Origin: Solirubrobacterales bacterium
Lineage (GTDB): Bacteria > Actinomycetota > Thermoleophilia > Solirubrobacterales > JACPNS01
DNA: 64,000 nucleotides
NCBI GenBank assembly: GCA_016185345.1
Contig: JACPNS010000005.1
Location: 34,117 to 98,116, forward strand
Direction of reading: 5' to 3'
Shown: positions 37,427 through 49,038 of the stretch, piece after piece
How positions within the stretch are numbered: position 1 is the stretch's first letter
Layout: each line of letters begins with the position of its first letter
Translations under genes and position numbers: made by a program
The notes under the pieces: generated by a model
What the model was told of the DNA's origin: nothing
What the model saw: the letters and a program-made list of their open reading frames with translations, nothing else
Database searches by the model: none

Positions 37427-38692
37427 CTACGGAACGTCGAACTCCTGGGAGGGGTCGGTGCTTGGTTTCGGCGTCGGAGCAGGCTTGGGTGCTGCCTGCG
37501 GCTGAGGCTGAGGTGCTGCCTGCGGGACGGCCTGTTGTTGGACCTGCGGAGTTGCAGCCACGGCATTCGCACGCGCCGCTCGCCTTGCCGCGGCTGCCCT
37601 TGAGCGCGCACGGGCACGGGCGCGAGACCTGGCGCGCGCTTCGCGGCGTCGCTCGGCGCGACGTTCAGCCCGACGCTCCCGCGCGGCACGCGCTTCACGG
37701 CGTTCCTTCGCGGCTTTGGCATCGGCTTCCTTGTTGCTGGTCTGAGCGGTGTTGACGCTCGTGTCTTCTTCGCTACCGAGCTGACCGATCAAAAGGAAGC
37801 CGGCGACGATCACGGCAGCGATCGCTCCGGCAATCAATCCCGTGCGCTTGCGCTTCTCGGCAACCCTTGCGTCGGCCGCACGCTTCTTCTTGGCGCGAAG
37901 CGGACTCGGTGCGCGGCGAGCGGCATCGGTCGTGCCGACCACTCCGAGACTGAGGCTGCCGGTCAGCGCGCGAAGCATCGTTCCGGTCGGATTGGTGACT
38001 GCGGTGAGACCACGCGTTTTGATCGCGTGGCGGATGCAACCCGGGCAGCCAGCAATGTGCGCTGACGCCGTGCGGTACTCATCCGAACGCGGATCGAGGA
38101 TCCCGAGCGCGTACTGATTCACAAGCGGCAATAGCCCTTCGCACGCCTCGCCTTCCTCGTACTCCTCGAGCAGCGGCTCGAACTCCTCTTGAATCTCATC
38201 CATCAACTCGGCGAGCCGGAAGGCTCCGACGCCAATGATTTCGGCCGCTTCGAATGGCTTGAACCCGTAAACGTGGCACAGCGTCACCGCCTGGAGTTCA
38301 CGTTGGTTCAGACGCTTGCGCATGCGCGCCGAGAACTCACGCTGCTTTTGTTGCTGCTCCGGAGTGGCTTCGATCGGGTCGGCAATTCCTACCGCTTCGA
38401 GAACCTCGACGTCCATTCGCGTCTCGGGATGAAGCACACGGTGCTCGTCCACCGCCTGTCGGTATGTGGAGTCGGTCAGCAGCCGTTCGAGGTTTCCGAC
38501 CGCTCCCTTTCCCCACAGGTGTGAGAAGACGCCGTGCCAGGCACGGTTGTAAAAAGTGTCCACGTCGCGAGCCGCGAAGTCGATACCCGCGCTCGCCAGT
38601 TCGTTGTACGAAATGCGCGTGACGTCGGCCCGGTACTTGGCGTACTCGTCGCCGATCGCGTGGTCGGCCTGCTGGTCGAGCGCCGTGCTCAT
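37427..38692 (-). CDS. fused ECF-type sigma factor / ZAS anti-sigma domain / TM / low-complexity tail (locus A)
   Basis: 421 aa from 'MSTALDQQ'. Its ATG overlaps the upstream stop (ATGA). Sigma region-2-like 'FYNRAWHGVF...YRQAVDEHR'. Region-4-like 'LNQRELQAVTLCHVYGFKPFEAAEIIGV'. Zinc motif C184...H212-IAG-C216-PG-C219. TM helix 'GLIAGAIAAVIVAGFLLIGQL'. The tail is Arg/Ala-rich, then Pro/Gln-rich. Confidence 0.7.
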   Translation of the reverse strand: MSTALDQQADHAIGDEYAKYRADVTRISYNELASAGIDFAARDVDTFYNRAWHGVFSHLWGKGAVGNLERLLTDSTYRQAVDEHRVLHPETRMDVEVLEAVGIADPIEATPEQQQKQREFSARMRKRLNQRELQAVTLCHVYGFKPFEAAEIIGVGAFRLAELMDEIQEEFEPLLEEYEEGEACEGLLPLVNQYALGILDPRSDEYRTASAHIAGCPGCIRHAIKTRGLTAVTNPTGTMLRALTGSLSLGVVGTTDAARRAPSPLRAKKKRAADARVAEKRKRTGLIAGAIAAVIVAGFLLIGQLGSEEDTSVNTAQTSNKEADAKAAKERREARAARERRAERRAERRREARARSRARARARSRAAAARRAARANAVAATPQVQQQAVPQAAPQPQPQAAPKPAPTPKPSTDPSQEFDVP

Positions 38693-40284
38693 CCAAGCAC
38701 CAGGACCCGAACTGAAGAACTTGACTTGCTCGGCCATGGCCAGTCCGGCTTGGAGCGAACTATCGCGCGGAAGGTGAAGAGCGTCGGGCGCGTCACGCGC
38801 TTGAAGCGGTACTTCCACTTGTAGCTGCCGCTCTTGCCGGCGCGAACTTCTGCGACCTTCGCCCACTTCTTGCCGTTGAGCACCTGGATCTCGACTGGGG
38901 CTCCCGCGGCGGCTCCGGCCGTTCCACTGAGCCGTCCTGAGATCGCGAATACCTTGCCCCGGCTGAGAGTTCCGCGCGAGCGCCTGGCGGAGAGGGTCAG
39001 TCGCTGGCGAACGATCGTGGATGCGAAGGCGGTGCCACGGAACGAAAAGGTGACTCTGCGCGCACCATTCGGTCGCACCTTGAAGGAGAAGCTGCCGTCC
39101 TTTGCCGTCTTCGCAGACCCCAGTGGCTTGGTCGCAGCGCCCGACACGCCAAGGCTCGAAGCCGTCACCGTGAGCGTCTCGCCCGCAATCGCTGCGCCCG
39201 AAGAGCTCTTCAGTGCGCCGCGAACCAGAACTGTGCGGCCGGCCTTCCCGTCGATCAAGCCCTTGCGCACCGAGAGGATCGCGCCGGTGAGGATCGGAGA
39301 ACCGTTGGCATCGACGCCAGCGACTCCCGGAACGGTGAACGAAACTGGTGCCGATGTGCCGACGTTTCCGGCTGCGTCGGTCGCCGAGATGACCGCGGTG
39401 TGCGTGCCGGCTGCGTAGTCAGCGAGGTCGATCGTGTAGCTGGGATCCCGGTCCTGCGGACACGGAACGGGATTGCGGAAGACCGTGCTGCAGGAACCGC
39501 CGGAGATCGAAAGGGCTTTGCGCACGCCGTCGATCTGAAGTGAGTAGCTGCTGACGCCTCCGCCGACGTCAACGATCTGAGCGGCGAGCGTGCGCTCACC
39601 GCTGACGCCGTTCGCACCCGGCAGTGTGCCGCCGGTGAACGTGATCGCAGGAGCCGAATTGTCAGTGATGTCCACGCGAGATTCGAGCAACGACGCGCGA
39701 AGCGTGCCGATCCCGGCGCCGGCGCAGCTGGTCGTGCTCTGGGCGCATTCGATTCCAAGCTGAAGTCCGCTCGCCGCGATTCCCACCGACTGCGTACCCG
39801 AGGCAGCGATGCTGCAGTTGGCGGTGACCGCTTCGCACTCGCCCCAGTATGTGTCTGTTCCCGAAGTGGTCCGCTGGAGGCCCGCGCTGAGCGTCGGTCG
39901 AGCGGATCCCGCGTACGTCACGTTGACCGAGCGTCGGATCAGATATCCAGAGATCTTCGTTCCGGGTGGAGCCGCAAATGCGAAGCCCGCCTCTTCGCCA
40001 GCCGCCAATGTCGTGCCGGGAGCTACGACTACAGAAAGATCGGGGCAAGTTGTTCCGAATGTGAATGCAGAGCTGGGAGTGGTCACCGACCGACGCGGAT
40101 TCCACGCGTTGTTGGGCAACGACTCACCGGAAGGTCCGACGCAGCTGTAGACGCTGTAGGTGCCCGCCGCTGCCGAACTCGTGAGCACAGCGAAGGCAAC
40201 TACGGCAGCGAGCAGCGTCGCGAGCCATGCGGCTACGCGCCGACGATCCAAGGCTGATTGCCGTGCGTCGATCACCGAGTTCAC
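38689..40284 (-). CDS. secreted multidomain protein, partner of the fused sigma (locus A)
   Basis: 531-aa track ORF. Signal-like 'RRRVAAWLATLLAAVVAFAVLTSSAAA'. Paired cysteines, an Ig-like segment ('TAVISATDAAGNVGTSAPVSFTV'), and a CarboxypepD_reg-like segment ('GETLTVTAS...DGSFSFKVRP'). The likely true start is the GTG at 40275, 8 nt after AAGGAG. Confidence 0.7.
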   Translation of the reverse strand: MNSVIDARQSALDRRRVAAWLATLLAAVVAFAVLTSSAAAGTYSVYSCVGPSGESLPNNAWNPRRSVTTPSSAFTFGTTCPDLSVVVAPGTTLAAGEEAGFAFAAPPGTKISGYLIRRSVNVTYAGSARPTLSAGLQRTTSGTDTYWGECEAVTANCSIAASGTQSVGIAASGLQLGIECAQSTTSCAGAGIGTLRASLLESRVDITDNSAPAITFTGGTLPGANGVSGERTLAAQIVDVGGGVSSYSLQIDGVRKALSISGGSCSTVFRNPVPCPQDRDPSYTIDLADYAAGTHTAVISATDAAGNVGTSAPVSFTVPGVAGVDANGSPILTGAILSVRKGLIDGKAGRTVLVRGALKSSSGAAIAGETLTVTASSLGVSGAATKPLGSAKTAKDGSFSFKVRPNGARRVTFSFRGTAFASTIVRQRLTLSARRSRGTLSRGKVFAISGRLSGTAGAAAGAPVEIQVLNGKKWAKVAEVRAGKSGSYKWKYRFKRVTRPTLFTFRAIVRSKPDWPWPSKSSSSVRVLVLG

Positions 40285-40366: not shown

Positions 40367-41599
40367 TTACTGCAAATCGAACTCAGCGCCGCCGTCTTCA
40401 GACGGGTTGCTCGGCGTGGCCTGGGGCTGGGCGGGCTGCGGATCCACGGGCTGCGCGGCCTGGGGTTGAGTCTGTTGCGGGGCTGGCTGCTGCGCCTCGG
40501 CCTTGGCCTCTGCCTCGGCGGCGGCCTTCCTTCTTGCGGCAGACCTGCGCGTTGCTGCGCGTTCAGCAGCCGCTTCCTTTGCCGCCTCGGCCTTCGCGGC
40601 GTCGGCCTCTGCGGTGGCTGCCGTATTCGCGTTCTGGCTTGCTGGCCTCGGTGCCGCAGCGTCATCGGCTCCGGAAAGTTGGTTCGCCGCGACAACTCCG
40701 CCGGCGGCGACGGCAGCGATCGCCGCAACCACGGCAGCGATCTGCGCAGCTCCTCCGATACCGGCGCCAGTGCCAGCTGCGGCTGCGGCTCCAGCTGAAG
40801 ATCCTCCTGCCGTGCTGGACCCGGCAGCAGCAGCGCCCGCCGCGCCCGCTCCAACGGCAGCGCCCGTAAGCGCAAACAACATCAACGCGCTCGGGATCGT
40901 TACCGCGGTGAGTCCGCGCGTGCCCATCACGTGGCGGCGGCAGCCCGGGCAGTCTTCAAGATGGTCGATCGCCTCGCGGTAGTCGGAGCCTTCGGGGTCG
41001 AGCGCGCCGAGCGCAAACTGGTTGATCAGCACGGCGCGATCCTCGCACCAGTTGCCTTCCTTGATCGAGGCGAGCACCGGACGCATCTTGCGCGACACCT
41101 CGTCCATGATTTTTTCCATGCGCTTGGGCCGCACGCCAACCTGCTCGGCGGCCTCGGGTCGCGACATGCCGTAGACGTAACAAAGCGTGGCCGCCTGGAG
41201 CTCGCGTTGGTTGAGCTCTGAGCGCATGCCCTCGACGAAGTGCTTGAACTCCTGCTGCTGGTCGATCGTCTCCTCGATCGGGTTGTCGACACCGAGCGTT
41301 TCAAGCACGACGGGATCGGCCTGACGATCGGGGTGCAGCGTGCGGTACTCGTCGATCGCACGGCGATAGGTCATCTGGATCAGCAGACCCTTGCGATTCT
41401 CGATCTGCTGGCCGTCCTGAAGCTTCGTGTACAGCCCGAACCAAGCCTGGTTGTAGAAGCCATCCATGTCGAGTTCCGCGAAGCGGATTTTCGAGGCACC
41501 GAGCTTTCCGGCTGCCGTGCGCGTGACCTCGTCCTTGAACGCGTCGTATTCGGCGCCGATCACTTCGTCGGCGTTGACGGTGACCGGGGGGCTACTCAT
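40367..41599 (-). CDS. fused ECF-type sigma factor / ZAS anti-sigma domain / TM / low-complexity tail (locus B)
   Basis: 410 aa from 'MSSPPVTV'. Collinear with the locus A protein: 'FYNQAWFGLY', 'LNQRELQAATLCYVYGMSRPEAAEQVGV', C185...H213-LED-C217-PG-C220. Has a Gly/Ala-rich hydrophobic region and an Ala/Glu/Lys-rich, then Pro/Gln-rich tail. Confidence 0.7.
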   Translation of the reverse strand: MSSPPVTVNADEVIGAEYDAFKDEVTRTAAGKLGASKIRFAELDMDGFYNQAWFGLYTKLQDGQQIENRKGLLIQMTYRRAIDEYRTLHPDRQADPVVLETLGVDNPIEETIDQQQEFKHFVEGMRSELNQRELQAATLCYVYGMSRPEAAEQVGVRPKRMEKIMDEVSRKMRPVLASIKEGNWCEDRAVLINQFALGALDPEGSDYREAIDHLEDCPGCRRHVMGTRGLTAVTIPSALMLFALTGAAVGAGAAGAAAAGSSTAGGSSAGAAAAAGTGAGIGGAAQIAAVVAAIAAVAAGGVVAANQLSGADDAAAPRPASQNANTAATAEADAAKAEAAKEAAAERAATRRSAARRKAAAEAEAKAEAQQPAPQQTQPQAAQPVDPQPAQPQATPSNPSEDGGAEFDLQ

Positions 41600-42155
41600 G
41601 TTGAGAGCTGTCGGCAATCATGAACAATGCGACACTCGCGCCGAGCGCGTTGGCAACGTGGCCCGGGACGCCCATCCGATCGGCGGGTGCGCAGGCCAGC
41701 GCCGCGAATATGCTCGAGCTGACGCGACGCGCAAGCGCCACGCTCTCACCGCCGGCGCGCAGGCCGGTGAACATCGGATCGCGGTCATCGCTCATGACAA
41801 GTTCCGTCTCGTCGAGTGCACCGGCGATCCAGACCTCTGAGTCGTAGCCGGTGTCCCGTGCGTGCACCTCGAGTGCGCGTGCCGCAAGCCGCGCAACTCC
41901 CGCTGCCGCATCACGAAGCATCTGCGCGTGCTCGTACGTGTCGGGGGCAGCCTCGAATATCTGGGCGATCATCGCCGCGTCTACCGAAGCGTCGCCCGCA
42001 AGGCACAGGAGGTCCTGGGTCGAGCAAGTCTGCTCAATCTCGTGGGTCTGACCGGTGAAGTTACCTCCCACGGCGATCGCAGTGCCGTGCGCACGCGCGA
42101 TTGAATCGCGGCCGCGTTCGCCGAGCTCGACCAGAGCGCGCTCAAACGGAGTCAT
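41592..42155 (-). CDS. hypothetical acidic cytoplasmic protein, present only in locus B
   Basis: 187 aa with no family recognised. The ATG overlaps the upstream stop (ATGA at 42152-42155). Its stop lies 2 nt before the sigma-fusion start. Confidence 0.5.
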   Translation of the reverse strand: MTPFERALVELGERGRDSIARAHGTAIAVGGNFTGQTHEIEQTCSTQDLLCLAGDASVDAAMIAQIFEAAPDTYEHAQMLRDAAAGVARLAARALEVHARDTGYDSEVWIAGALDETELVMSDDRDPMFTGLRAGGESVALARRVSSSIFAALACAPADRMGVPGHVANALGASVALFMIADSSQHE

Positions 42156-43786
42156 CGCGCCACCAGCACCTTCACGCGCTTACTGGTCTCGGTCGGCCAG
42201 GGCCACGTCGTGTTACGACGGACGATCGTGCGGAACGTGAAACGCGTTGGCTGCCGCACGCGCGTGAAGCGGTAGCGCCATTTGTAGCTGCCGCGCGAGT
42301 TGGCCTCCACAACGCCGACCGCGCGCCAGGTCTTGTCGATCAATGCATCGATCTCGACAGGGGTGTCGTCTGCCGCCGAGCCGGCACCGTCGAGCTTGCC
42401 GCTCAGAGTGAGCAGACCGCCGGGCTTTATGCGCGACTTCGAACGCTTGACCGAAAGAGTGAGATCCTCGCGCACGATCGTCGAGGTCACAGCGGTTCCG
42501 AGGGACGCCGGAAATGGCTTGAAGAGAACGCTGATGCGGCGGGCGCCATCAGGCTTGACTCTGAATGAGAAGCGTCCGGCCGCCGTCGTGGTGGTCGTGC
42601 CGATCGACTTTGGAGCGGCGTTGAAAACGCCGAGGTCAAGCGCAGTGACATCGAGCAGCGCGCCAGCCACGGGAACTCCATCCGCAGTGGTGAGCGTCCC
42701 TTCAACGAGCACGCCCTTCCCGGTCCTTGACGAGATCACAGACTTCTCGCTTTTGACGATTGGTTGCTCAACCGCCGGGGAACCGTTGCTCGGCGGCGTG
42801 CCGCCTCCGCCTCTGCCGCCGTTCTGGCCGCCAGCGGTCACGACGAACGTGAAGCTGTAAGGCGCGCTGGTGTTGCCAGCCGCGTCGATCGCGGTCAGCG
42901 TCGCGGTGTGCATGCCATCTGTGAGGGCAGCAGTATTGACGCTGAGCGTGCGCTCGAGGCCCGAGGGGCAAGGCGCGCGCAACGTGTACGGCTGGCCGCA
43001 GCTGCCACCGGCGCCGCTGGCCTGCGTGAAGTTCCCGTCGATCGCAAGGTTGATCATTCGCACGCCGCCACCAACGTCAGTGCCGATCACATCAAGCGTT
43101 CGGAAGCCCGCAACCGCGCTTGAGCCGGGCAGCGCGCCGCCGACGGTGTTGATCACGGGGGCATTCGGATCCTCGACGTCCACGCGCGCGTCGATCAGGC
43201 GTGAAGAAAGTTTTGTGAACGAGCCTGCCGGGCAGTTGCCCGTCTCGGCTGCGCAGCGCACGCCGATGCTCAATCTGTCGATCGCGAGGCCGCCCGTCGA
43301 CGCGACCGAGGGGGTCACCTCGCAGGCGCTGGTCACTGCGACGCAATCGAACTCTGTCCTTGCGGAACCAGTTGACTCCTGGATGCCAGCAGACAGTTGC
43401 GTTCGCCCGCCCGTCGGGGAGGGGTAGGTGATCGACGCCGCGCGATTGACCGCGTAGCCGCTGATCGTGGTGCCGGTCGGCGCGTCGAACACGTACGCGG
43501 CGCCGTCGTTCTGACTGAATGAATCGGCGGGATCGGCGATCACGCTCAGATCGCCGCAGTTGCTGCCAAACGAAAACGAGAGCGTCTGGCTGGGCGTGTT
43601 CACCGAGGTAAGCCAGGACGAGTTCGGCAGCGGCGCGTCATTGGGACCAAGGCATGAGTAGACGCTGTAGGTCGCCGCGCCAGCTGATGTTGCACCGGCG
43701 AGTCCAAGCGCGCAGACGAACAACACGGCACTGAAAAAAGCTCGTGCCGTGAAATTCCTGCTGTGCGATCGGTTCATGATCAGCAT
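42152..43786 (-). CDS. secreted multidomain protein, partner of the fused sigma (locus B)
   Basis: Trimmed to 'MLIMNRSHSRNFTARAFFSAVLFVCALGLAGATSAGA'. Collinear paralog of 38689-40284. Shared blocks: TYSVYSC, RVD[IV].D..AP, GGSC....PCP, FRVKP[ND]GARR, GSYKW[KR]YRF, FTFR.IVR, WPWP. Confidence 0.7.
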   Translation of the reverse strand: MLIMNRSHSRNFTARAFFSAVLFVCALGLAGATSAGAATYSVYSCLGPNDAPLPNSSWLTSVNTPSQTLSFSFGSNCGDLSVIADPADSFSQNDGAAYVFDAPTGTTISGYAVNRAASITYPSPTGGRTQLSAGIQESTGSARTEFDCVAVTSACEVTPSVASTGGLAIDRLSIGVRCAAETGNCPAGSFTKLSSRLIDARVDVEDPNAPVINTVGGALPGSSAVAGFRTLDVIGTDVGGGVRMINLAIDGNFTQASGAGGSCGQPYTLRAPCPSGLERTLSVNTAALTDGMHTATLTAIDAAGNTSAPYSFTFVVTAGGQNGGRGGGGTPPSNGSPAVEQPIVKSEKSVISSRTGKGVLVEGTLTTADGVPVAGALLDVTALDLGVFNAAPKSIGTTTTTAAGRFSFRVKPDGARRISVLFKPFPASLGTAVTSTIVREDLTLSVKRSKSRIKPGGLLTLSGKLDGAGSAADDTPVEIDALIDKTWRAVGVVEANSRGSYKWRYRFTRVRQPTRFTFRTIVRRNTTWPWPTETSKRVKVLVAR

Positions 43787-44287
43787 CGTGTGACTTTCAA
43801 ACACCCGCGAGCGGGATTCGGTGTGCAACGAGAAAACTAACTGCCAGCCGTCACCGGAGACTGCACCCGCGAAATCGCGACAATACCGCGAGTGTTGAGT
43901 GTCCCGGTTGACGGCTGGCAGACGCGTCCCCATGGCGCAGGTGCGCAAACGCTCTGACCGAAGAGGTCGCGATCATCCATGATCAAGCGCTCGCGCGTAG
44001 AACAAAGGTGGCTCTGGCGAAGTCTGCCTGAATTCACCGAGCCCGTCAACGCCGAAAGCTGCGCCGGAGCCCCCCGGCGCATGAATGACGTGTTCTCCCG
44101 TGCCACGTTGCGAACGGAACATCCAACCGACCCAGGGGGGTAACGATTTGGGTCGGCCTCCGCATACGCAGTTGCATGTCTGAAGCTCCGCTCCAGAGAG
44201 TTGCTGTGAACATCATGTTTCACACTTATACGTCGGGGGCAGCGCCGTTTCGCCCCCCCTTTGGTCAGCCACCAACCCCACGCAAAT

Positions 44288-44525
44288 TGCACACCTCTGG
44301 TGCGCAACGGTACTTTGGATGCTTTGGACCGCATGGTTGAGCGATTTATTTTGCGCACCTCTGGTGAGCAACGGCGGATCGCCGCCGGCTATGCGCGCGT
44401 AGCTCTGCGAGGGCGGTCGTGAAAACCCCGGTCGCGATTCACTGCACACCAGAGGTGCGCCGTGGCGGACCCCATATATAAGCCATAGTTCGCCCCAAAA
44501 TCCCCTTGCACACCAAAGGTGCGCA
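44288..44525. repeat. four copies of a 19-bp palindrome TGC[AG]CACC-NNN-GGTG[CA]GC[AC]
   Basis: Copies at 44288-44306, 44352-44370, 44443-44461 and 44507-44525. Centre-to-centre spacing is 64, 91 and 64 bp. Copies 1 and 2 have a TCT core; copies 3 and 4 have AGA and AAA cores (opposite orientation). All lie in non-coding DNA. Confidence 0.75.
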
Positions 44526-44539
44526 GCTTGGTGCGGGAT

Positions 44540-45352
44540 CTAACGGTTTCTGCGCCGGCCGGAGGACTTCTTCTCTTTGGGTTCTTTCTCCGGCTTCTTG
44601 GTGCCGTTGAGCCTGAGGTCTTCCTTGGCGATGCGCTGCAGGATCTTTCCGAAGGCCTCTTCGGCGGCCGTGTCCATGTTCACGCGGAACGACGCCATCA
44701 CCGTCTCGGTGGCGAGTGGTCGCAGGCCCTCGATCGCCTCTACGACTTTCGGGAAGCTCTCCGGCGGAAGCCCTGCCTTCTCCTGCGGTCGCACAACGCC
44801 CGTGTCAACCATCTTCGTGAAGACTTCGGCGATCGCTCGCGTGTGGTCGTTGACCTTCTTGAAGACGTCAAAGAGCGTGTCCACGGGAACGCCCAGCTCC
44901 AGCGCGCTGATTCCGGCGCGCAGCAACGTGGGGCTGAGCACCTCGTAGCGATCATCGCCGAGCGGGATGATGAACCCCAGGTCGATCGCCTGCTTGATCA
45001 TTCGCGAGTCGATCTCGCCGACCTGATCTGCGATCTCCTTCAAGGTCATGACTTCGGAGGGCTCTTCTGCAAACGGCGTGAGCACAAGGTTGCGCAGGTC
45101 GCCGATGTTGTCGCCGGTTTCCTCGGCGCGCTCGACCAGGCGTTGAATTGCCGTCAGGTTGAAACCACCCGCCTGCAGCTGCTGAATGAGTTCGAGCCGG
45201 GCTATATGGCGGTCGCCGTAATAGCCGATGCGCCCTTGGACGTCTGGGGCGGGGAGCAAGCCGCGGGACTGGTGGGCGCGGATGTTGCGCACCGTCATCC
45301 CGGTCTGCTGAGCGAGTTCGTCGATCGTGAGTTGGTCTTTGGTCTCAACCAT
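44540..45352 (-). CDS. MerR-family transcriptional regulator with long C-terminal domain
   Basis: Trimmed to 'MVETKDQLTIDELAQQTGMTVRNIRAHQSRGLLPAP'. 270 aa with a Lys-rich tail. Confidence 0.8.
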   Translation of the reverse strand: MVETKDQLTIDELAQQTGMTVRNIRAHQSRGLLPAPDVQGRIGYYGDRHIARLELIQQLQAGGFNLTAIQRLVERAEETGDNIGDLRNLVLTPFAEEPSEVMTLKEIADQVGEIDSRMIKQAIDLGFIIPLGDDRYEVLSPTLLRAGISALELGVPVDTLFDVFKKVNDHTRAIAEVFTKMVDTGVVRPQEKAGLPPESFPKVVEAIEGLRPLATETVMASFRVNMDTAAEEAFGKILQRIAKEDLRLNGTKKPEKEPKEKKSSGRRRNR

Positions 45353-45380
45353 TGACACGAATCCTATATTCAAGACAGAC

Positions 45381-45408
45381 TTGCATGAAACATGATTCCA
45401 TGTAACAT
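45381..45408 (+). promoter_or_regulatory. candidate promoter giving a leaderless mRNA for the 45415 gene
   Basis: TTGCAT (45381-45386), 16 nt, then TAACAT (45403-45408). The ATG lies 7 nt after the -10. ACATG-ATTC-CATGT dyad sits within the spacer. The region is AT-rich and divergent from the MerR gene. Confidence 0.4.
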
Positions 45409-45414
45409 AGCCAC

Positions 45415-47334
45415 ATGACACCCGAACTTTTCACCTCGATCCTTGCTGCAGCTGAAGCTGCCCCGCCAGCCGGAGGCGCCGCTCTCAAGGAAATAGTTAT
45501 CGCCACGCTTATGGGCGGCGTCGCCTTGGGTGGCGTCGTCCTTCTGGCCTTCGGCCACCGTGCCGGCAGGATCACCTGGCTCCAGACCGCCGGGGACTTT
45601 GCGGGCAAACAGCTGAGTCTTCCCGCTTGGGCCGCGCTTCCGCTTGTGGTCTTGACGACCTCCCTGATCGCCGCCGTATTCGGGCTCTACTGGGACGTCT
45701 CGCTGCATATCTCGAAGGGCCGCGACGAAGGCCCGCTTGCAAACCCCTCTCACTACTTCATCCTGGTCGGACTTCTGGGGTGCTTCTCGGCCGGAGTGCT
45801 GGCGATGACGATGCCCAAGCCCGGCACAAAGCCGAGCCCGTGGGCCGTCAAACTCGCCGAAGGCTGGTACGCGCCCGTCGGCGGCATTCTCATCGCGGTC
45901 TCCTCCGCGTTTGGCCTCGCTGGATTTCCGCTTGATGACTTCTGGCACCGCATGTTCGGGCAGGACGTCACGCTCTGGGGACCGACGCACCTGCTGATGC
46001 TGACCGGCGCGGGCCTTTGTCTGATCGGGGCGTCCGTACTCCTTGTCGAGGGCGGACTTGCCACCGATCGCAAACGCGGCGACCGCAAATTGACCACTCG
46101 CGAGAAGGCTGTTCGCACGGTCCGTCGGTCGGCCTCTGCCGGCGGATTGCTCGTAGCACTCGGCATTTACATGGGTGAGTTCGACTTTGGTATCGCCCAG
46201 TTCCAGCAGGTCTTCCACCCATTGATGGTGATGTTTGCCGCAGGCGTCGCGCTCACGTATGCACGATTGAGCATCGGCAGGGGCGGAGCAATTTTTGCCG
46301 TGCTGTTTTATCTCTTGGTCCGCGGTCTGCTCACGCTGATCGTCGCCGATGTTTTCGGGCGCCCGACCGCAAACTTCCCGATCTTCATCGGCAGCGCAGT
46401 CGCCGTTGAGCTTGCAGCTTTCGCTTTTGGCGCGAAGCTCTTCCAGAAACCAATGCAGTTTGCAATCGCCGCAGGGGCCGCGATCGGCACGCTCGGCCTT
46501 GCTACCGAGTGGGCTTGGAGCAATGTCTGGTCGGTCTACCCGTGGGGCAGCGCGCTGATGCCCGAGGGCCTGATCGTTGGACTCATCGCCGCTATCTGCG
46601 GCGCTTTCATCGGGGCCTGGATGGCGAACGCGTTGATGCTGCGACCGCGTCCAACCGGCGCTTTGCGCTTTGCCCCAGTCGCTTCCTTGCTGGTGCTGAT
46701 GGTGATGGTCGGTTACGGCCTCAACCAGTACTCACCCAAAGGCCTCGAGGCTCAGCTCACCAACACGGTGGCCACCCCGCCGCCGGGTGAATCCGGCAAG
46801 TGGGTGAACACCGTCGCCAAACTCAATACGACTTATTACGACACCGATCAGAAGTGGGCCAAGTCAATCGCCTGGCAGGGTCCGGGCTTCGTGGTCACCG
46901 ACTTGAAGCGGATCGGCCCCGGCACCTACGCGACCACCGCGCCAATCCCCGCAAACGGGAAATGGAAGTCGATGCTGCGCTTCCACAAGGGCTCGTCCCT
47001 GATGGGCGTCCCGGTTTTCGAGCCGCTCGACGAGGCGATCCCCGCTGCCGAAGTACCCGCGTCACCGCAGGTGACACGCCCACTTCAGCCCGACCGCGTA
47101 ATCCTTCAGCGCGAGGCGAAGTTTGATGGCGGCTGGCTTCCACTGCTCGGATATTTATTGGTCTTCGCCATCGCGATGCTGCTGCTCTGCCTGCTGGCCT
47201 GGGGGATTCAGCGCGTCAGCACGCCGCTCACCGAGCAACAAGGCGCGTCTGACGACAAGGCGGAGGACGCTAGCGAGACTCCGGCCGTTCGCAGCGGTTC
47301 CAACGGCCGGCCGTTGACTCCACGCGACGCCTGA
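45415..47334 (+). CDS. large polytopic membrane protein with extracytoplasmic domain, unknown function
   Basis: 639 aa. About 12 TM helices, then a ~170-aa soluble domain, then a final TM helix. Notable 'LYWDVSLH' and 'PLDDFWHRMFGQDVTLWGPTH' segments. Confidence 0.6.
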   Translation: MTPELFTSILAAAEAAPPAGGAALKEIVIATLMGGVALGGVVLLAFGHRAGRITWLQTAGDFAGKQLSLPAWAALPLVVLTTSLIAAVFGLYWDVSLHISKGRDEGPLANPSHYFILVGLLGCFSAGVLAMTMPKPGTKPSPWAVKLAEGWYAPVGGILIAVSSAFGLAGFPLDDFWHRMFGQDVTLWGPTHLLMLTGAGLCLIGASVLLVEGGLATDRKRGDRKLTTREKAVRTVRRSASAGGLLVALGIYMGEFDFGIAQFQQVFHPLMVMFAAGVALTYARLSIGRGGAIFAVLFYLLVRGLLTLIVADVFGRPTANFPIFIGSAVAVELAAFAFGAKLFQKPMQFAIAAGAAIGTLGLATEWAWSNVWSVYPWGSALMPEGLIVGLIAAICGAFIGAWMANALMLRPRPTGALRFAPVASLLVLMVMVGYGLNQYSPKGLEAQLTNTVATPPPGESGKWVNTVAKLNTTYYDTDQKWAKSIAWQGPGFVVTDLKRIGPGTYATTAPIPANGKWKSMLRFHKGSSLMGVPVFEPLDEAIPAAEVPASPQVTRPLQPDRVILQREAKFDGGWLPLLGYLLVFAIAMLLLCLLAWGIQRVSTPLTEQQGASDDKAEDASETPAVRSGSNGRPLTPRDA

Positions 47335-47452: not shown

Positions 47453-48606
47453 ATGGATTTTCAAACCATGACCTCGCCGTTTGGCGGGGCTGCTGCTCGG
47501 CCCGCGGCTCCAGCGCAGCCTCAGACCTGTACACCATTGATCCAGCTACCGGTGCCTCGACCTCGATCGGCACGATCGGCATGGCAGTCACGGGGATGGC
47601 CTACCAAGCTTCGACCGGCACGCTCTACGGAGTCACGACACCGAACAGCCCTGTCAACCCGAGGAACTTGATCACGATCGACACAGCGACCGGCACGCCA
47701 ACCGTGATCGGTCCGCTGCTCAACTCATCCGCAGGGGCTGAAACGATCGCCGAGATCGAGTTCGACGGCTCGGGCGCGCTCTGGGGCTGGAGCGAATCCG
47801 GCGACCAGCTCGTTCAAGTAGACACCGCCACCGGCGGAGTGACTGAATTCCCGAACGTCATCGGCACGGCCGGAGACGGAATGGCGTGGATCCTCGGTAG
47901 TGACACGCTTTGGTTCATGCCCAATGACTCGGATGGCAATTACTACTCGATCGACCGCAGCACAGGAAACGTCACAAGTATCGGCACCCTGAACGGATCC
48001 GGAGCAACAGTTGCGGCCGCCACGCAGTCCTGCGATGGGCTCACCACCTACGCATTGGAGATGGGTGCGCCGTCGACGCTCGTCACCGTTGATTACGCCA
48101 CGGGCGTGGTTGCCACCGTCGGCGCGACCAGTATGACCAACGGGGACGCGCTCACATGGGCATGCGGTGCCGCAGCGCCGCCAGCTCCGGCAGCGCCAGC
48201 CACCACTCCACCGGCTCCGACTGTTACCCCGTTGCCACCGAAGATCTACTCGCTCGGCAACCGCGCGATGGCGTACTGCGCAATCAAAACGGGCAACTGC
48301 CGTGTCGGATTCAGGTTCAGCGTCAGTCAGGCCTCAAAAGTGACTCTCCGAATCACGCGCCTCTACGGACGCCGCCAGCCCGCAGAGTGCAAAACAGTGA
48401 ACACTGAGAACCGCTCAAACACCGTCTGCAAGATCGGCAGACCCACCTACACCCGAACCGTGTCCGCGACGAAGGGGAGCAACAACTACACGTTCCGCCT
48501 ACCGAGCACGGCGACCCGCGGCCACTACACGGTCACGGCGCGGGCCGTGAACAACAACGGCAGGTCGTCGCTCAAGACGCACGACTTCTCGGTCCCTTGG
48601 GGCTGA
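47453..48606 (+). pseudogene. LVIVD-like repeat (beta-propeller type) protein gene with a disrupted 5' end
   Basis: The track ORF 47581-48606 starts inside a repeat series of type 'xL..[IV]D.[AS]TG..T.[IV]G'. The first repeat unit ('DLYTIDPATGASTSIGTIG') is encoded upstream (47524-47580) in the same frame. That frame has no ATG, GTG or TTG back to the stop at 47440. A Shine-Dalgarno-preceded ATG at 47453 lies in a different frame. Confidence 0.55.
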
Positions 48607-49038
48607 TCAGCGCCCGGCCGTTGACTCCGCGCGACGCTTGAGCGCGGAGTTGAAACTGGCGTGAACCCGGTCGGGCAGCTTATGAAAGGGCCCGACCGGT
48701 TTGAACAGGCCGGTGAAGACTTCGTGGTGGCGCAGCACTGTTGTTGACTCATCAAGCTGCTCGATGATGAAGCGGTGGTCGGCGATGAACGCGCCGGGCA
48801 CGCCGCCCTTCCAGCGCAGTTCCACATTCGGCTCGACGGTAAGGAGAGTCGGGAAGAACGGCACGGTCGCGGGACCAAGCCCAAGCTTGCCCTTCAGCTT
48901 CGCGCCCTCTTTGAGCTCGCCGACCATCCCGGGTGTCATCGGATTCCAGGCCGGGAACTCGGCGAAGTCGGTGATGACCTGCCAGACGCGCTCGGGGCTG
49001 GCCGTGATTTCGACGAACTGGCTGTTGGCGACGCTCAT
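48607..49038 (-). CDS. SRPBCC-superfamily (polyketide cyclase/dehydrase-like) protein
   Basis: 143 aa. 'ITASPERVWQVITDFAEFPAWNP' is typical of the family. Confidence 0.75.
   Translation of the reverse strand: MSVANSQFVEITASPERVWQVITDFAEFPAWNPMTPGMVGELKEGAKLKGKLGLGPATVPFFPTLLTVEPNVELRWKGGVPGAFIADHRFIIEQLDESTTVLRHHEVFTGLFKPVGPFHKLPDRVHASFNSALKRRAESTAGR

What the first reader, a model, noticed from the sequence alone, without database searches (positions are those of the whole stretch)
43787..44539. 750-nt non-coding region with four mirror-arranged 19-bp palindromes and several stable hairpins, upstream of the locus B operon
For this compact genome, this is an unusually long gap. The only long ORF here (43837-44358, minus strand) has A/T-rich third codon positions and an implausible Arg/Trp-rich product. 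The gap contains four copies of TGC[AG]CACC-NNN-GGTG[CA]GC[AC] at 44288, 44352, 44443 and 44507. Spacing is 64, 91 and 64 bp. Copies 1 and 2 carry a TCT core with an AACGG flank. Copies 3 and 4 are in the opposite orientation, so there are two pairs related by a dyad near 44407. The gap also holds GC-rich hairpins at 44061-44080, 44127-44156 and 44235-44257, and a TGTGAA…TTCACA dyad at 44205-44224. Three roles are possible: an operator array for a dimeric regulator controlling the sigma module, a structured long 5' leader or sRNA, or a REP/MITE-like repeat cluster. Copy 4 may also serve as the terminator of the MerR gene, because on the minus strand the hairpin is followed by ATTTTGGGG.
Basis: seen in the sequence. 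Interest (0 to 1): 0.65.

Follow-up and report, generated by a model that had tools for sequence, protein, structure and literature searches.

The report
Foldback insertion beside new structured RNA
The long gap holds two unrelated things: a 262-base hairpin-forming insertion found only in this species, which carries the four palindromes, and a conserved, highly folded RNA of about 400 bases that matches no family in Rfam 15 and probably controls the downstream secreted-protein/sigma-factor operon.

Summary
Four copies of TGCRCACC-N3-GGTGMGCM lie at 44288, 44352, 44443 and 44507, and nowhere else in the 64 kb.

They are not an ancestral operator array. Thirteen orthologous loci from related Thermoleophilia, with MerR 78-95% identical, keep a 487-548-nt gap here. 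That gap aligns with window 43787-~44262. All lack the ~262-nt segment 44276-44536 that carries the palindromes. This segment is one imperfect foldback: copy 4 pairs with copy 1, and copy 3 with copy 2 (-144.7 kcal/mol, z -6.7). It sits between the MerR stop codon and a conserved module of G-run, 17 nt, then CGAC. The best reading is a REPIN/MITE-like insertion. Its copy number could not be tested, because the source genome is not searchable here.

It has 108 predicted pairs, 53 with compensatory changes, and 92% of cells pair against 35-45% for slid controls. It ends in a long stem followed by UUAGUUUU, 46 nt before the start codon. It matches no Rfam 15 family. The overlapping 173-aa ORF shows no coding signature.

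The most likely role is a cis-regulatory leader working by attenuation, preceded by an ECF-type promoter. Both the role and the promoter are inferred.

The parts
44540..45352 (-). MerR-family regulator gene (context). Its stop codon lies 3 nt from the foldback.
   Evidence: Pfam MerR_1 E 5.1e-19. 2994 homologues, named MerR family in Thermoleophilaceae/Solirubrobacterales MAGs. One homologue (P0048) carries a faint Rv1828_C hit.
44276..44536 (.). 262-nt imperfect foldback (large inverted repeat) carrying the four palindromes. It is a lineage-specific insertion.
   Evidence: Absent from L081, L086, L089, L131-L134, L137, L001-L003, L004 and L135, and from L082-L085, which lack locus B. Present in L087 (100% identical) and L088 (99.5%). 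The self-alignment spans window 44276-44536. RNA fold -144.7 kcal/mol, z -6.71, pairing copy 4 with copy 1 and copy 3 with copy 2.
44288..44306 (+). Palindrome copy 1: TGCACACCTCTGGTGCGCA
44352..44370 (+). Palindrome copy 2: TGCGCACCTCTGGTGAGCA
44443..44461 (-). Palindrome copy 3, opposite orientation: GGCGCACCTCTGGTGTGCA on the minus strand
44507..44525 (-). Palindrome copy 4, opposite orientation: TGCGCACCTTTGGTGTGCA on the minus strand. It lies 15 nt after the MerR stop.
   Evidence: Not flagged as terminator-like.
44232..44259 (-). Conserved module: G-run (44253-44259), exactly 17 nt, then CGAC (44232-44235). Putative ECF-type promoter, or alternatively a 5' hairpin.
   Evidence: The same geometry occurs in 14 of 14 orthologous loci with variable spacer sequence. 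This includes L004 and L135, whose downstream leader differs. It is the only such site in the window. The promoter role is inferred.
43833..44226 (-). Conserved structured RNA of about 400 nt (helices 3-16 plus the UUAGUUUU tail), on the same strand as MerR and the operon. Helix coordinates: H3 44205-44224, H4 44179-44197, H5-7 44109-44170, H8-15 43931-44107 (H11 44060-44081), H16 43840-43922.
   Evidence: RNAalifold on 11 sequences predicts 108 pairs in all, 101 of them in helices 3-18, which lie in this interval; 53 of the 108 have compensatory changes. 92.4% of cells pair against 35-45% when slid; covariation score 0.412 against <=0.134; 0 of 500 shuffles reach it. Sense strand -107.3 against antisense -76.7 kcal/mol. 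The single sequence folds at -187 kcal/mol, z -5.1. No Rfam 15 match at E<=1.
43874..43887 (-). Near-invariant apical loop GGUAUUGUCGCGAU of the 3' domain (identical in 9 of 11; UUGUCGCGA in all 11), closed by a covarying 8-9-bp stem.
   Evidence: Columns 47-55 (UUGUCGCGA) are invariant in alignment A5. Every one of the 11 sequences folds alone into the same stem with different sequence.
43833..43922 (-). Terminator-like 3' domain: a long stem (H16, 16 predicted pairs, 12 covarying) followed by UUAGUUUU (43833-43840), 46 nt before the start codon.
   Evidence: The tail was flagged by the terminator scan.
42152..43786 (-). First gene of 'locus B': secreted protein with Ig-like/CarboxypepD_reg domains. 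It is followed by a 187-aa protein and a 416-aa ECF-sigma-like protein.
   Evidence: Sub-threshold Pfam hits, Big_13 23.2 bits (cut-off 27) and CarboxypepD_reg 23.3 bits (cut-off 32.3). TIGR02937 sigma70-ECF 30.2 bits, below cut-off, for the 416-aa protein. The start codon at 43786 aligns with relatives.

Best explanation
The 753-nt gap is a composite of two unrelated parts.

(A) Window 43787-~44260 is ancestral and functional. It holds a promoter-like module (G-run, 17 nt, CGAC) followed by a structured RNA of about 400 nt, transcribed in the same direction as the operon. The RNA has about 16 helices. It ends in a long stem whose apical loop, GGUAUUGUCGCGAU, is near-invariant, followed by a U-rich tail 46 nt upstream of the secreted-protein start codon. 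No room is left for another promoter. The operon (secreted protein, 187-aa protein, ECF-sigma-like protein, then paralogous locus A) must therefore be transcribed through this RNA. The RNA most likely acts as a cis-regulatory leader that sets read-through or termination at the 3' stem, i.e. attenuation. The signal it responds to is unknown.

(B) Window 44276-44536 is a 262-nt foldback element carrying the four palindromes. It was inserted in this species lineage only, between the MerR stop codon and the promoter-like module. It is most simply a non-autonomous mobile or selfish element of the REPIN/BIME/MITE kind, or its relic. It sits in a tolerated intergenic spot. At most it adds a strong hairpin after the MerR gene.

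Shown: the insertion status, the foldback structure, the RNA structure and its conservation, and the non-coding status. Inferred: the mobility of the foldback, the promoter role of the module, and the attenuation mechanism.
For: Insertion.
- In the relatives that carry locus B, the MerR-to-operon gap is 487-548 nt and aligns with window 43787-~44262. The palindrome block has no counterpart there.
- It is present and identical in the two near-identical contigs L087 and L088.
- No GCNCACCNNNGGTGNGC occurs in 80 other Thermoleophilia MerR loci.

Foldback.
- The arms align over ~100 nt, including both palindromes.
- The RNA fold is -144.7 kcal/mol, z -6.7.
- It has no protein homologue and no plasmid match.

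RNA.
- 108 predicted pairs, 53 with compensatory changes.
- 92.4% of cells pair against 35-45% for slid controls, and 0 of 500 shuffles reach the observed values.
- The sense strand is preferred.
- All 11 sequences fold the 3' domain the same way.
- Synteny MerR, then RNA, then secreted-protein gene holds in 11 distinct relatives.
- Codon-position test and GC3 argue against coding.

Module. G-run, N17, CGAC occurs in 14 of 14 loci.

ECF-like sigma in the operon. From general knowledge, not tested here: ECF sigma factors commonly autoregulate from promoters with a CGAC/CGTC -10 element and a 16-17-nt spacer.
Against: Foldback.
- No second copy was found anywhere: not in the 64 kb, and not in the JGI metagenome or IMG/VR scans, which returned only scattered single matches. 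The defining property of a mobile repeat family is therefore unproven.
- Target-site duplication is ambiguous (CGCACCAAG against CTGACCAAAG).
- The arms are only ~72% alike in a hand count over 43 terminal positions, based.
- No transposase or RAYT gene was looked for across the whole window.

RNA.
- No transcript data exist and the 5' end is not mapped.
- The spacer of the G-run module always contains a C-rich tract able to pair with the G-run. It could therefore be an RNA hairpin (a MerR terminator or the RNA's 5' helix) rather than a promoter.
- A -35 element made of a G-run is not a described ECF consensus.
- The U tail is interrupted (UUAGUUUU).
- Only 11 sequences from one clade support the structure.
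Confidence: 0.6

Rival explanations
1. The four palindromes are operators for a dimeric transcription factor (the adjacent MerR or another regulator). The factor would bind cooperatively and control the downstream operon or MerR read-through.
For: The palindromes are perfect 8-3-8 dyads of a size typical for dimeric HTH proteins. The 64-bp spacing is about 6 helical turns. They lie 16-270 nt upstream of the promoter-like module.
Against: They are absent from all orthologous loci, although MerR (91-95% identical), leader and operon are conserved there. There are none in 80 further MerR loci. The MerR gene's own conserved promoter dyad is unrelated. No regulator gene came with the insertion. All four sites arrived together as one foldback, which is how repeats arise, not operators.
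Confidence: 0.1
2. The foldback is a one-off, non-mobile insertion that now works at the RNA level. It would be a strong hairpin or array after the MerR stop that terminates or stabilises the MerR mRNA. Alternatively it is an RNase III-type processing site that insulates MerR from the leader and operon.
For: It starts 3 nt after the stop codon. It forms ~20-bp duplexes and four 8-bp hairpins. No other copy was detected.
Against: Copy 4 lacks an adjacent U tract and is not called terminator-like. Relatives do without the foldback. Its origin remains unexplained.
Confidence: 0.15
3. The conserved ~400-nt RNA is a stand-alone, trans-acting non-coding RNA ending at the H16 terminator, not a cis-acting leader.
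For: The 3' hairpin is very strong (-50 to -65 kcal/mol) and is followed by a U-rich tail. The apical loop is near-invariant, which suggests a binding site. The RNA is larger and more complex than typical riboswitches.
Against: Only about 30 nt separate the U tail from the ribosome-binding region of the next gene (46 nt to the ATG). That leaves no space for a separate operon promoter. The RNA is always immediately upstream of the same operon and on the same strand.
Confidence: 0.2
4. The region encodes a real protein: the 173-aa ORF 43837-44358 on the minus strand, which stays open over ~135-145 codons in 7 relatives.
For: The same frame is free of stop codons in the window, L081, L086, L089 and L001-L003.
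Against: Substitutions are spread equally over the three codon positions in all six comparisons. GC3 is 0.62 against 0.74-0.86 in real genes. L086 has a 1-nt deletion inside the frame. There is no Pfam hit. Base-pair covariation explains the conservation. Other frames and the opposite strand also have long open stretches.
Confidence: 0.03

Closest known systems
REPINs / REP clusters (BIMEs) mobilised by RAYT transposases (PMC3116915, PMC3337134)
   Same: Short GC-rich imperfect palindromes. [quoted passage not shown] Extragenic, next to a gene's 3' end. No coding capacity.
   Different: REPINs occur tens to hundreds of times per genome and come with a RAYT gene. Here only one locus is known and no RAYT was identified. 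This element has two palindromes per arm (nested or doubled). REPINs are described by those papers mainly in Pseudomonas and enterobacteria, not in Thermoleophilia.
MITEs (miniature inverted-repeat transposable elements)
   Same: About 260 bp, terminal inverted repeats, foldback secondary structure, non-coding, present or absent between close relatives.
   Different: Target-site duplication is unclear. No related autonomous IS is known and no additional copies were found. The arms are rather diverged (~72% in a hand count).
Riboswitch or attenuator-type 5' leaders with an intrinsic-terminator expression platform
   Same: A conserved, covarying structure directly upstream of and co-oriented with the regulated operon. 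The last helix is a long stem followed by a U-rich tract just before the ribosome-binding site.
   Different: It has about 400 nt and about 16 helices, several times the size of typical riboswitch aptamers. No ligand, antiterminator or known motif was identified. It matches none of the 4227 Rfam 15 families.
Large structured bacterial ncRNAs of unknown function (OLE, GOLLD, HEARO, ROOL, raiA classes; recalled from general knowledge)
   Same: Size of several hundred nucleotides, many helices supported by covariation, narrow phylogenetic range, function not obvious from context.
   Different: There is no sequence or structure match to any of them in Rfam. This RNA has a fixed position as the leader of one operon. 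Those RNAs are mostly independent genes.
ECF sigma factor autoregulated promoters (for example B. subtilis sigma-X type, -35 then N17 then CGAC; recalled from general knowledge)
   Same: A CGAC element at a fixed 17-nt distance from a conserved upstream element, with a variable spacer. It lies upstream of an operon that encodes an ECF-like sigma domain.
   Different: The upstream element is a 6-11-nt G-run instead of the usual AAC-containing -35. The spacer can pair with the G-run. No TSS data exist.

Membership tests
REP / REPIN (RAYT-associated) | Short (about 20-40 nt) imperfect palindromic unit | tested here: met
   Four 19-24-nt units with an 8-bp stem and 3-nt centre.
REP / REPIN (RAYT-associated) | Two units in inverted orientation separated by a short spacer, forming a long hairpin | tested here: met
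   Copy 2 pairs with copy 3 (72-nt spacer) and copy 1 with copy 4 in the minimum-energy fold, z -6.7.
REP / REPIN (RAYT-associated) | Tens to hundreds of dispersed extragenic copies in the genome | tested here: inconclusive
   No other copy in the 64-kb window at <=3 mismatches. None in about 1 Mb of related loci. The metagenome scan gave 34 unrelated single matches, but it does not contain this species. The full source genome is not available.
REP / REPIN (RAYT-associated) | Cognate RAYT (Y1 transposase) gene flanked by the same REPs | not tested
   The window's genes were not all screened. No REP copy flanks any other gene in the window.
MITE | Terminal inverted repeats and small non-coding body | tested here: met
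   Self-alignment of 44276-44536 with its reverse complement. The longest internal ORF has no homologue.
MITE | Target-site duplication flanking the element | tested here: inconclusive
   CGCACCAAG (left) and CTGACCAAAG (right) both resemble the ancestral CGCACCNNAG, but they are imperfect and the left one may belong to the inverted repeat.
MITE | Presence/absence polymorphism at an otherwise conserved site | tested here: met
   Absent in all 13 orthologous loci that carry the operon. Present in the window, L087 and L088.
Transcription-factor operator array | Sites conserved at the orthologous promoter in related genomes | tested here: not met
Transcription-factor operator array | Specific binding by a regulator | not testable with these tools
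   Needs EMSA or ChIP.
Intrinsic terminator (copy 4 for MerR) | GC-rich stem-loop immediately followed by a U tract | tested here: not met
   The scan of 43600-44700 does not list it. UUUU begins 6 nt after the stem.
Cis-regulatory leader RNA (riboswitch/attenuator class) | Conserved secondary structure supported by covariation | tested here: met
   53 of 108 pairs have compensatory changes. Controls; strand preference.
Cis-regulatory leader RNA (riboswitch/attenuator class) | Located in the 5' UTR of the regulated gene, same strand | tested here: inconclusive
   Position and strand fit in all 12 loci. The transcription start is not mapped.
Cis-regulatory leader RNA (riboswitch/attenuator class) | Expression platform (terminator or RBS-sequestering helix) with an alternative fold | tested here: inconclusive
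   A terminator-like H16 plus UUAGUUUU is present. No antiterminator alternative was searched for or shown.
Cis-regulatory leader RNA (riboswitch/attenuator class) | Ligand or signal binding | not testable with these tools
   Needs in-line probing or genetics.
Any Rfam 15 family | Covariance-model match | tested here: not met
   No match at E<=1 in window 43300-45000. In the 7 relatives the only matches falling inside the leader region are the weak chance-level P10 and Rev44 hits; tRNAs were found elsewhere in those loci.
ECF-sigma-dependent promoter | Two conserved elements at fixed 16-17-nt spacing with variable spacer, upstream of the sigma factor's own operon | tested here: met
   G-run, N17, CGAC in 14 of 14 loci. 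The ECF-like domain in the 416-aa protein is below cut-off.
ECF-sigma-dependent promoter | Transcription start about 6-8 nt downstream, dependent on the sigma factor | not testable with these tools
   Needs TSS mapping or in vitro transcription.

The most novel reading that the evidence does not exclude
The ~400-nt RNA (window 43833-44226, minus strand) is a new class of large regulatory RNA. It would be a complex sensor (large riboswitch or protein- or RNA-binding leader) that gates transcription of an ECF-sigma/secreted-protein operon. Its near-invariant GGUAUUGUCGCGAU loop would be the functional site. It would be driven by an unusual G-run/CGAC promoter recognised by the operon's own sigma-like protein. 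The species-specific foldback next to it would be the first sighting of a REPIN/MITE-like family in Thermoleophilia.
Probability: 0.3. Interest if true: 0.75.

Novelty: new variant of a known kind. Interest (0 to 1): 0.58.

Why it matters
Structured bacterial RNAs of several hundred nucleotides with many covarying helices are rare. Historically they have pointed to sophisticated functions such as ribozymes, large riboswitches and RNP scaffolds. This one comes from Thermoleophilia, a soil actinobacterial class known mostly from metagenomes. It has a fixed link to an operon encoding an ECF-like sigma/anti-sigma fusion and secreted Ig-like proteins, so its regulatory logic can be tested directly with TSS/Term-seq, reporter fusions and structure probing.

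The palindromes looked like the headline. They are instead a cautionary case: a striking 'operator array' that comparative genomics shows to be a recent foldback insertion. If more copies exist in the source genome, it would define a REPIN/MITE-like family in a lineage where the literature searches run here turned up none (a two-term search returned no paper).

Tried and rejected
(1) Rfam 15 scan with permissive E-value, on the window region and on 7 relatives. Nothing relevant matched.

(2) Dispersed-repeat test.
- Motif searches in the window at 2-3 mismatches found only the four copies.
- 80 genome loci had none.
- The JGI metagenome collection gave 34 scattered single matches in contigs of 38-69% GC, some of them terminator hairpins such as AAAAATGCGCACCTCTGGTGCGCATTTTT.
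- IMG/VR gave 7 single matches and PLSDB plasmids none.
- None shows a family. The source species is not in those collections, so the test stays open.

(3) Searching 5.8 billion proteins with the longest ORF inside the foldback, as an indirect way to find other copies. No hit.

(4) Coding hypothesis for the 173-aa ORF. The frame is open in 7 relatives, but it was rejected on the codon-position and GC3 tests.

(5) MerR as binder of the palindromes. Rejected because the conserved dyad in the MerR gene's own promoter is unrelated and the palindromes are not conserved with MerR.

(6) Sigma-70 promoter scan of the gap: 0 sites. My own candidate promoters inside the foldback were weak and are not claimed.

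(7) RNAalifold helix 1 (G-run with 43809-43815) varies on one side only. Helices 17 and 18 are better replaced by a covarying stem closing the conserved loop.

(8) A covariance model of the 3' domain and an nhmmer profile of the whole RNA found no further members among the 75-80 more distant MerR loci.

(9) Resemblance of GGTGCGCA to the XerC arm of E. coli dif, and of the TGTGAA..TTCACA dyad to Rex/CRP boxes. Both were recalled from memory and dismissed. The spacings do not fit, and helix 3 covaries as RNA.

(10) One literature search (terms 'Thermoleophilia' and 'structured RNA') returned no paper.
Full report
OBSERVATION

The degenerate motif gives 8 strand-matches against 0.57 expected. 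With the consensus and up to 3 mismatches, these are the only four sites in 64 kb (expected 0.03). Copies 1 and 2 read best on the + strand and copies 3 and 4 on the - strand.

The gap lies between two genes on the minus strand. Upstream is a MerR-family regulator (44540-45352; MerR_1 E 5e-19). Downstream is a secreted protein gene with Ig-like/CarboxypepD_reg domains that starts at 43786. After it come a 187-aa protein, a 416-aa protein with a sub-threshold ECF sigma match (30.2 bits, cut-off 42.9), and a paralogous two-gene 'locus A'. MerR homologues place the organism in Thermoleophilia (Thermoleophilaceae/Solirubrobacterales MAGs).

THE PALINDROMES ARE A LINEAGE-SPECIFIC INSERTION

I fetched orthologous loci through MerR homologues.

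- Two contigs are essentially the same organism: L087 is 100% identical over 14 kb and L088 is 99.5% identical over 11.8 kb. Both carry the four palindromes unchanged.
- Every other relative that has the operon shows a 487-548-nt gap. These are L081, L086, L089, L131-L134, L137 and L001-L003, with MerR 78-95% identical.
- In L081, L086 and L089 the gap aligns base for base with window 43787-~44262 and stops there. The segment with the palindromes has no counterpart.
- None of 80 further Thermoleophilia MerR loci contains GCNCACCNNNGGTGNGC.

The extra segment, 44276-44536, aligns with its own reverse complement along its whole length. The arms share both palindromes and parts of the spacers, and are ~72% alike in my hand count over 43 terminal positions. 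As RNA it folds into one nested hairpin in which copy 4 pairs with copy 1 and copy 3 with copy 2 (-144.7 kcal/mol, z -6.7). It begins 3 nt after the MerR stop codon. It ends 16 nt before a conserved G-run. Possible target-site duplicates (CGCACCAAG and CTGACCAAAG) resemble the ancestral CGCACCNNAG but are imperfect.

IS IT A DISPERSED REPEAT FAMILY?

- There is no other copy in the window.
- There is no other dispersed repeat family in the window.
- An exact-pattern scan of the JGI metagenome collection gave 34 single matches in contigs of 38-69% GC. None has a second copy close by, and none shows flank similarity beyond about 30 nt.
- IMG/VR gave 7 single matches. Plasmids gave none.
- The longest ORF inside the element has no homologue among 5.8 billion proteins.
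- The metagenome scan did not recover the window's own locus, so the species is absent from that collection. The full source genome was not available.

The anatomy therefore fits REPIN/BIME/MITE-type elements as defined in PMC3116915 and PMC3337134: inverted palindrome pairs, hairpin-forming, extragenic and non-coding. Multiplicity, the defining feature, is unproven.

AGAINST AN OPERATOR ARRAY

The sites are not conserved, although MerR, leader and operon are. All four arrived together as one foldback. The conserved dyad in the MerR gene's own divergent promoter (ACATGAAATCATGT in CTATGTTACATGAAATCATGTTTCATGCAAG) is unrelated to them. Copy 4 is not called terminator-like, because its U tract begins 6 nt after the stem.

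THE REST OF THE GAP IS A CONSERVED STRUCTURED RNA

An 11-sequence alignment of the gap (A3) gives an RNAalifold consensus of 108 pairs in 18 helices. Of these, 53 pairs keep pairing through changes on both sides.

Counting on that structure:
- 92.4% of cells are standard pairs, against 35-45% when partners are slid by 1-3 columns.
- 53 pairs have double changes, against 13-18 when slid.
- The covariation score is 0.412, against <=0.134 when slid.
- 0 of 500 column shuffles reach any observed value.

The gene strand folds better than its complement (-107.3 against -76.7 kcal/mol; covariation term 11.6 against 3.8). The window sequence alone reproduces the architecture (-187 kcal/mol, z -5.1).

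The 3' domain folds identically in all 11 sequences taken singly. It has a 16-20-bp outer stem (12 covarying pairs), an inner 8-9-bp stem of different sequence in each lineage, and a near-invariant loop GGUAUUGUCGCGAU (43874-43887; identical in 9 of 11, with UUGUCGCGA invariant in all). It is followed by UUAGUUUU (43833-43840).

NOT CODING, NOT A KNOWN FAMILY

A 135-145-codon frame stays open in seven relatives. But substitutions fall equally on the three codon positions in all six comparisons, and GC3 is 0.62 against 0.74-0.86 for real genes. L086 carries a 1-nt deletion within the frame.

Rfam 15 gives no match at E<=1 in the window region. In the seven relatives, nothing meaningful falls in the leader region. 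An nhmmer profile and a covariance model of the 3' domain find the RNA only in this clade, always between MerR and the secreted-protein gene. They find it in none of the 75-80 more distant loci.

PROMOTER-LIKE MODULE

Immediately 5' of helix 3, all 14 orthologous loci have a run of 6-11 G, then exactly 17 nt of variable sequence, then CGAC. This includes L004 and L135, whose downstream leader is different. It is the only such site in the window.

Fixed spacing with a variable spacer is what a two-element promoter looks like. CGAC at 17 nt recalls ECF-type -10 elements (general knowledge), and the operon encodes an ECF-like domain. However, the spacer always contains a C-rich tract that can pair with the G-run. 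An RNA hairpin (a MerR terminator or the first helix of the RNA) is therefore not excluded. The foldback sits just upstream of this module and leaves it intact.

MECHANISM

Only 46 nt separate the U tail from the ATG at 43786, too little for another promoter. The operon must therefore be transcribed through the RNA. I conclude, as an inference, that the RNA is a cis-acting leader whose terminator-like 3' stem sets read-through. The signal is unknown. A stand-alone sRNA is the main rival.

The foldback is most simply a selfish or neutral insertion in a tolerated spot. An acquired RNA-level role, as a hairpin after MerR or a processing site, is possible but has no evidence.

VERDICT

The operator reading is not supported. 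The leader reading is right for the hairpins, and the REP/MITE reading is the best available for the palindromes.

The more valuable result is the conserved ~400-nt RNA. It matches no Rfam 15 family and has strong covariation support. The sample is small: 11 aligned sequences plus L137, all from one clade, with no transcript data.

Noticed in passing
window 47301-47334 and 48608-48641: A 34-nt direct repeat (88% identical). The first copy is the 3' end of the 639-aa membrane-protein gene. The second lies just after the 341-aa DUF6923-like gene (47581-48606). That gene is absent at this position in L081 and replaced by a 417-aa DUF6923 protein in L086. This suggests a second insertion or replacement event bounded by a duplicated gene end.
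   Followed up: partly
window 45353-45414 (between MerR and the divergent 639-aa gene): A strongly conserved AT-rich segment, CTATGTTACATG(G/A)AATCATGTTTCATGCAAG, containing the dyad ACATGA-AA-TCATGT. It is present in relatives down to 80% MerR identity. It is a likely MerR operator/promoter and is unrelated to the 19-bp palindromes.
   Followed up: partly
L082 10826-11050 (also L083-L085): In the lineage of MerR homologue P0007 (92% identical), the gap is only 225 nt. It begins with what looks like the 3' end of the sigma-like gene (…GEEFDLQ*). Locus B and the structured RNA are missing and only one two-gene locus remains. An apparent deletion or recombination between the paralogous loci A and B.
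   Followed up: no
L004 2858-3276 and L135 3871-4285: A second type of ~415-nt conserved non-coding leader follows MerR in these relatives (MerR 74-77% identical). It precedes a 175-201-aa gene instead of the secreted protein. It keeps the G-run, N17, CGAC module and a few shared motifs (CAAGGATG, GGCAGCCGGCA), but neither the nhmmer profile nor the covariance model detects it. It may be a diverged homologue of the RNA.
   Followed up: partly
window 43803-43814: A small GC hairpin, CCCGC-UC-GCGGG, followed by UGUUUGA. It lies between the RNA's U tail and the ribosome-binding site. It is conserved only in the four closest genomes and could be a second terminator-like or RBS-proximal element.
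   Followed up: no
window 44158-44163, 44253-44259 and 44068-44073 (minus-strand RNA): An invariant C-run (CCCCCC) in the loop of helix 7, the 5' G-run, and the G-rich loop of helix 11 could form tertiary or alternative pairings (pseudoknot or kissing loop). Both partners are invariant, so covariation cannot test this.
   Followed up: no
window 37427-40284 and 40367-43786: Loci A and B are paralogous. Each has a secreted Ig-like protein plus a sigma-like protein with a CxxC motif, a putative membrane segment and an Ala/Pro-rich tail. Only locus B has the extra 187-aa gene and the structured leader.
   Followed up: no
L100 187-205, L104 2443-2461, L117/L124 7347-7365: The exact palindrome TGCGCACC-NNN-GGTGCGCA flanked by A5/T5 runs recurs in low-GC freshwater (partly viral) contigs, as an ordinary bidirectional terminator hairpin. 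It is unrelated to the window element.
   Followed up: no
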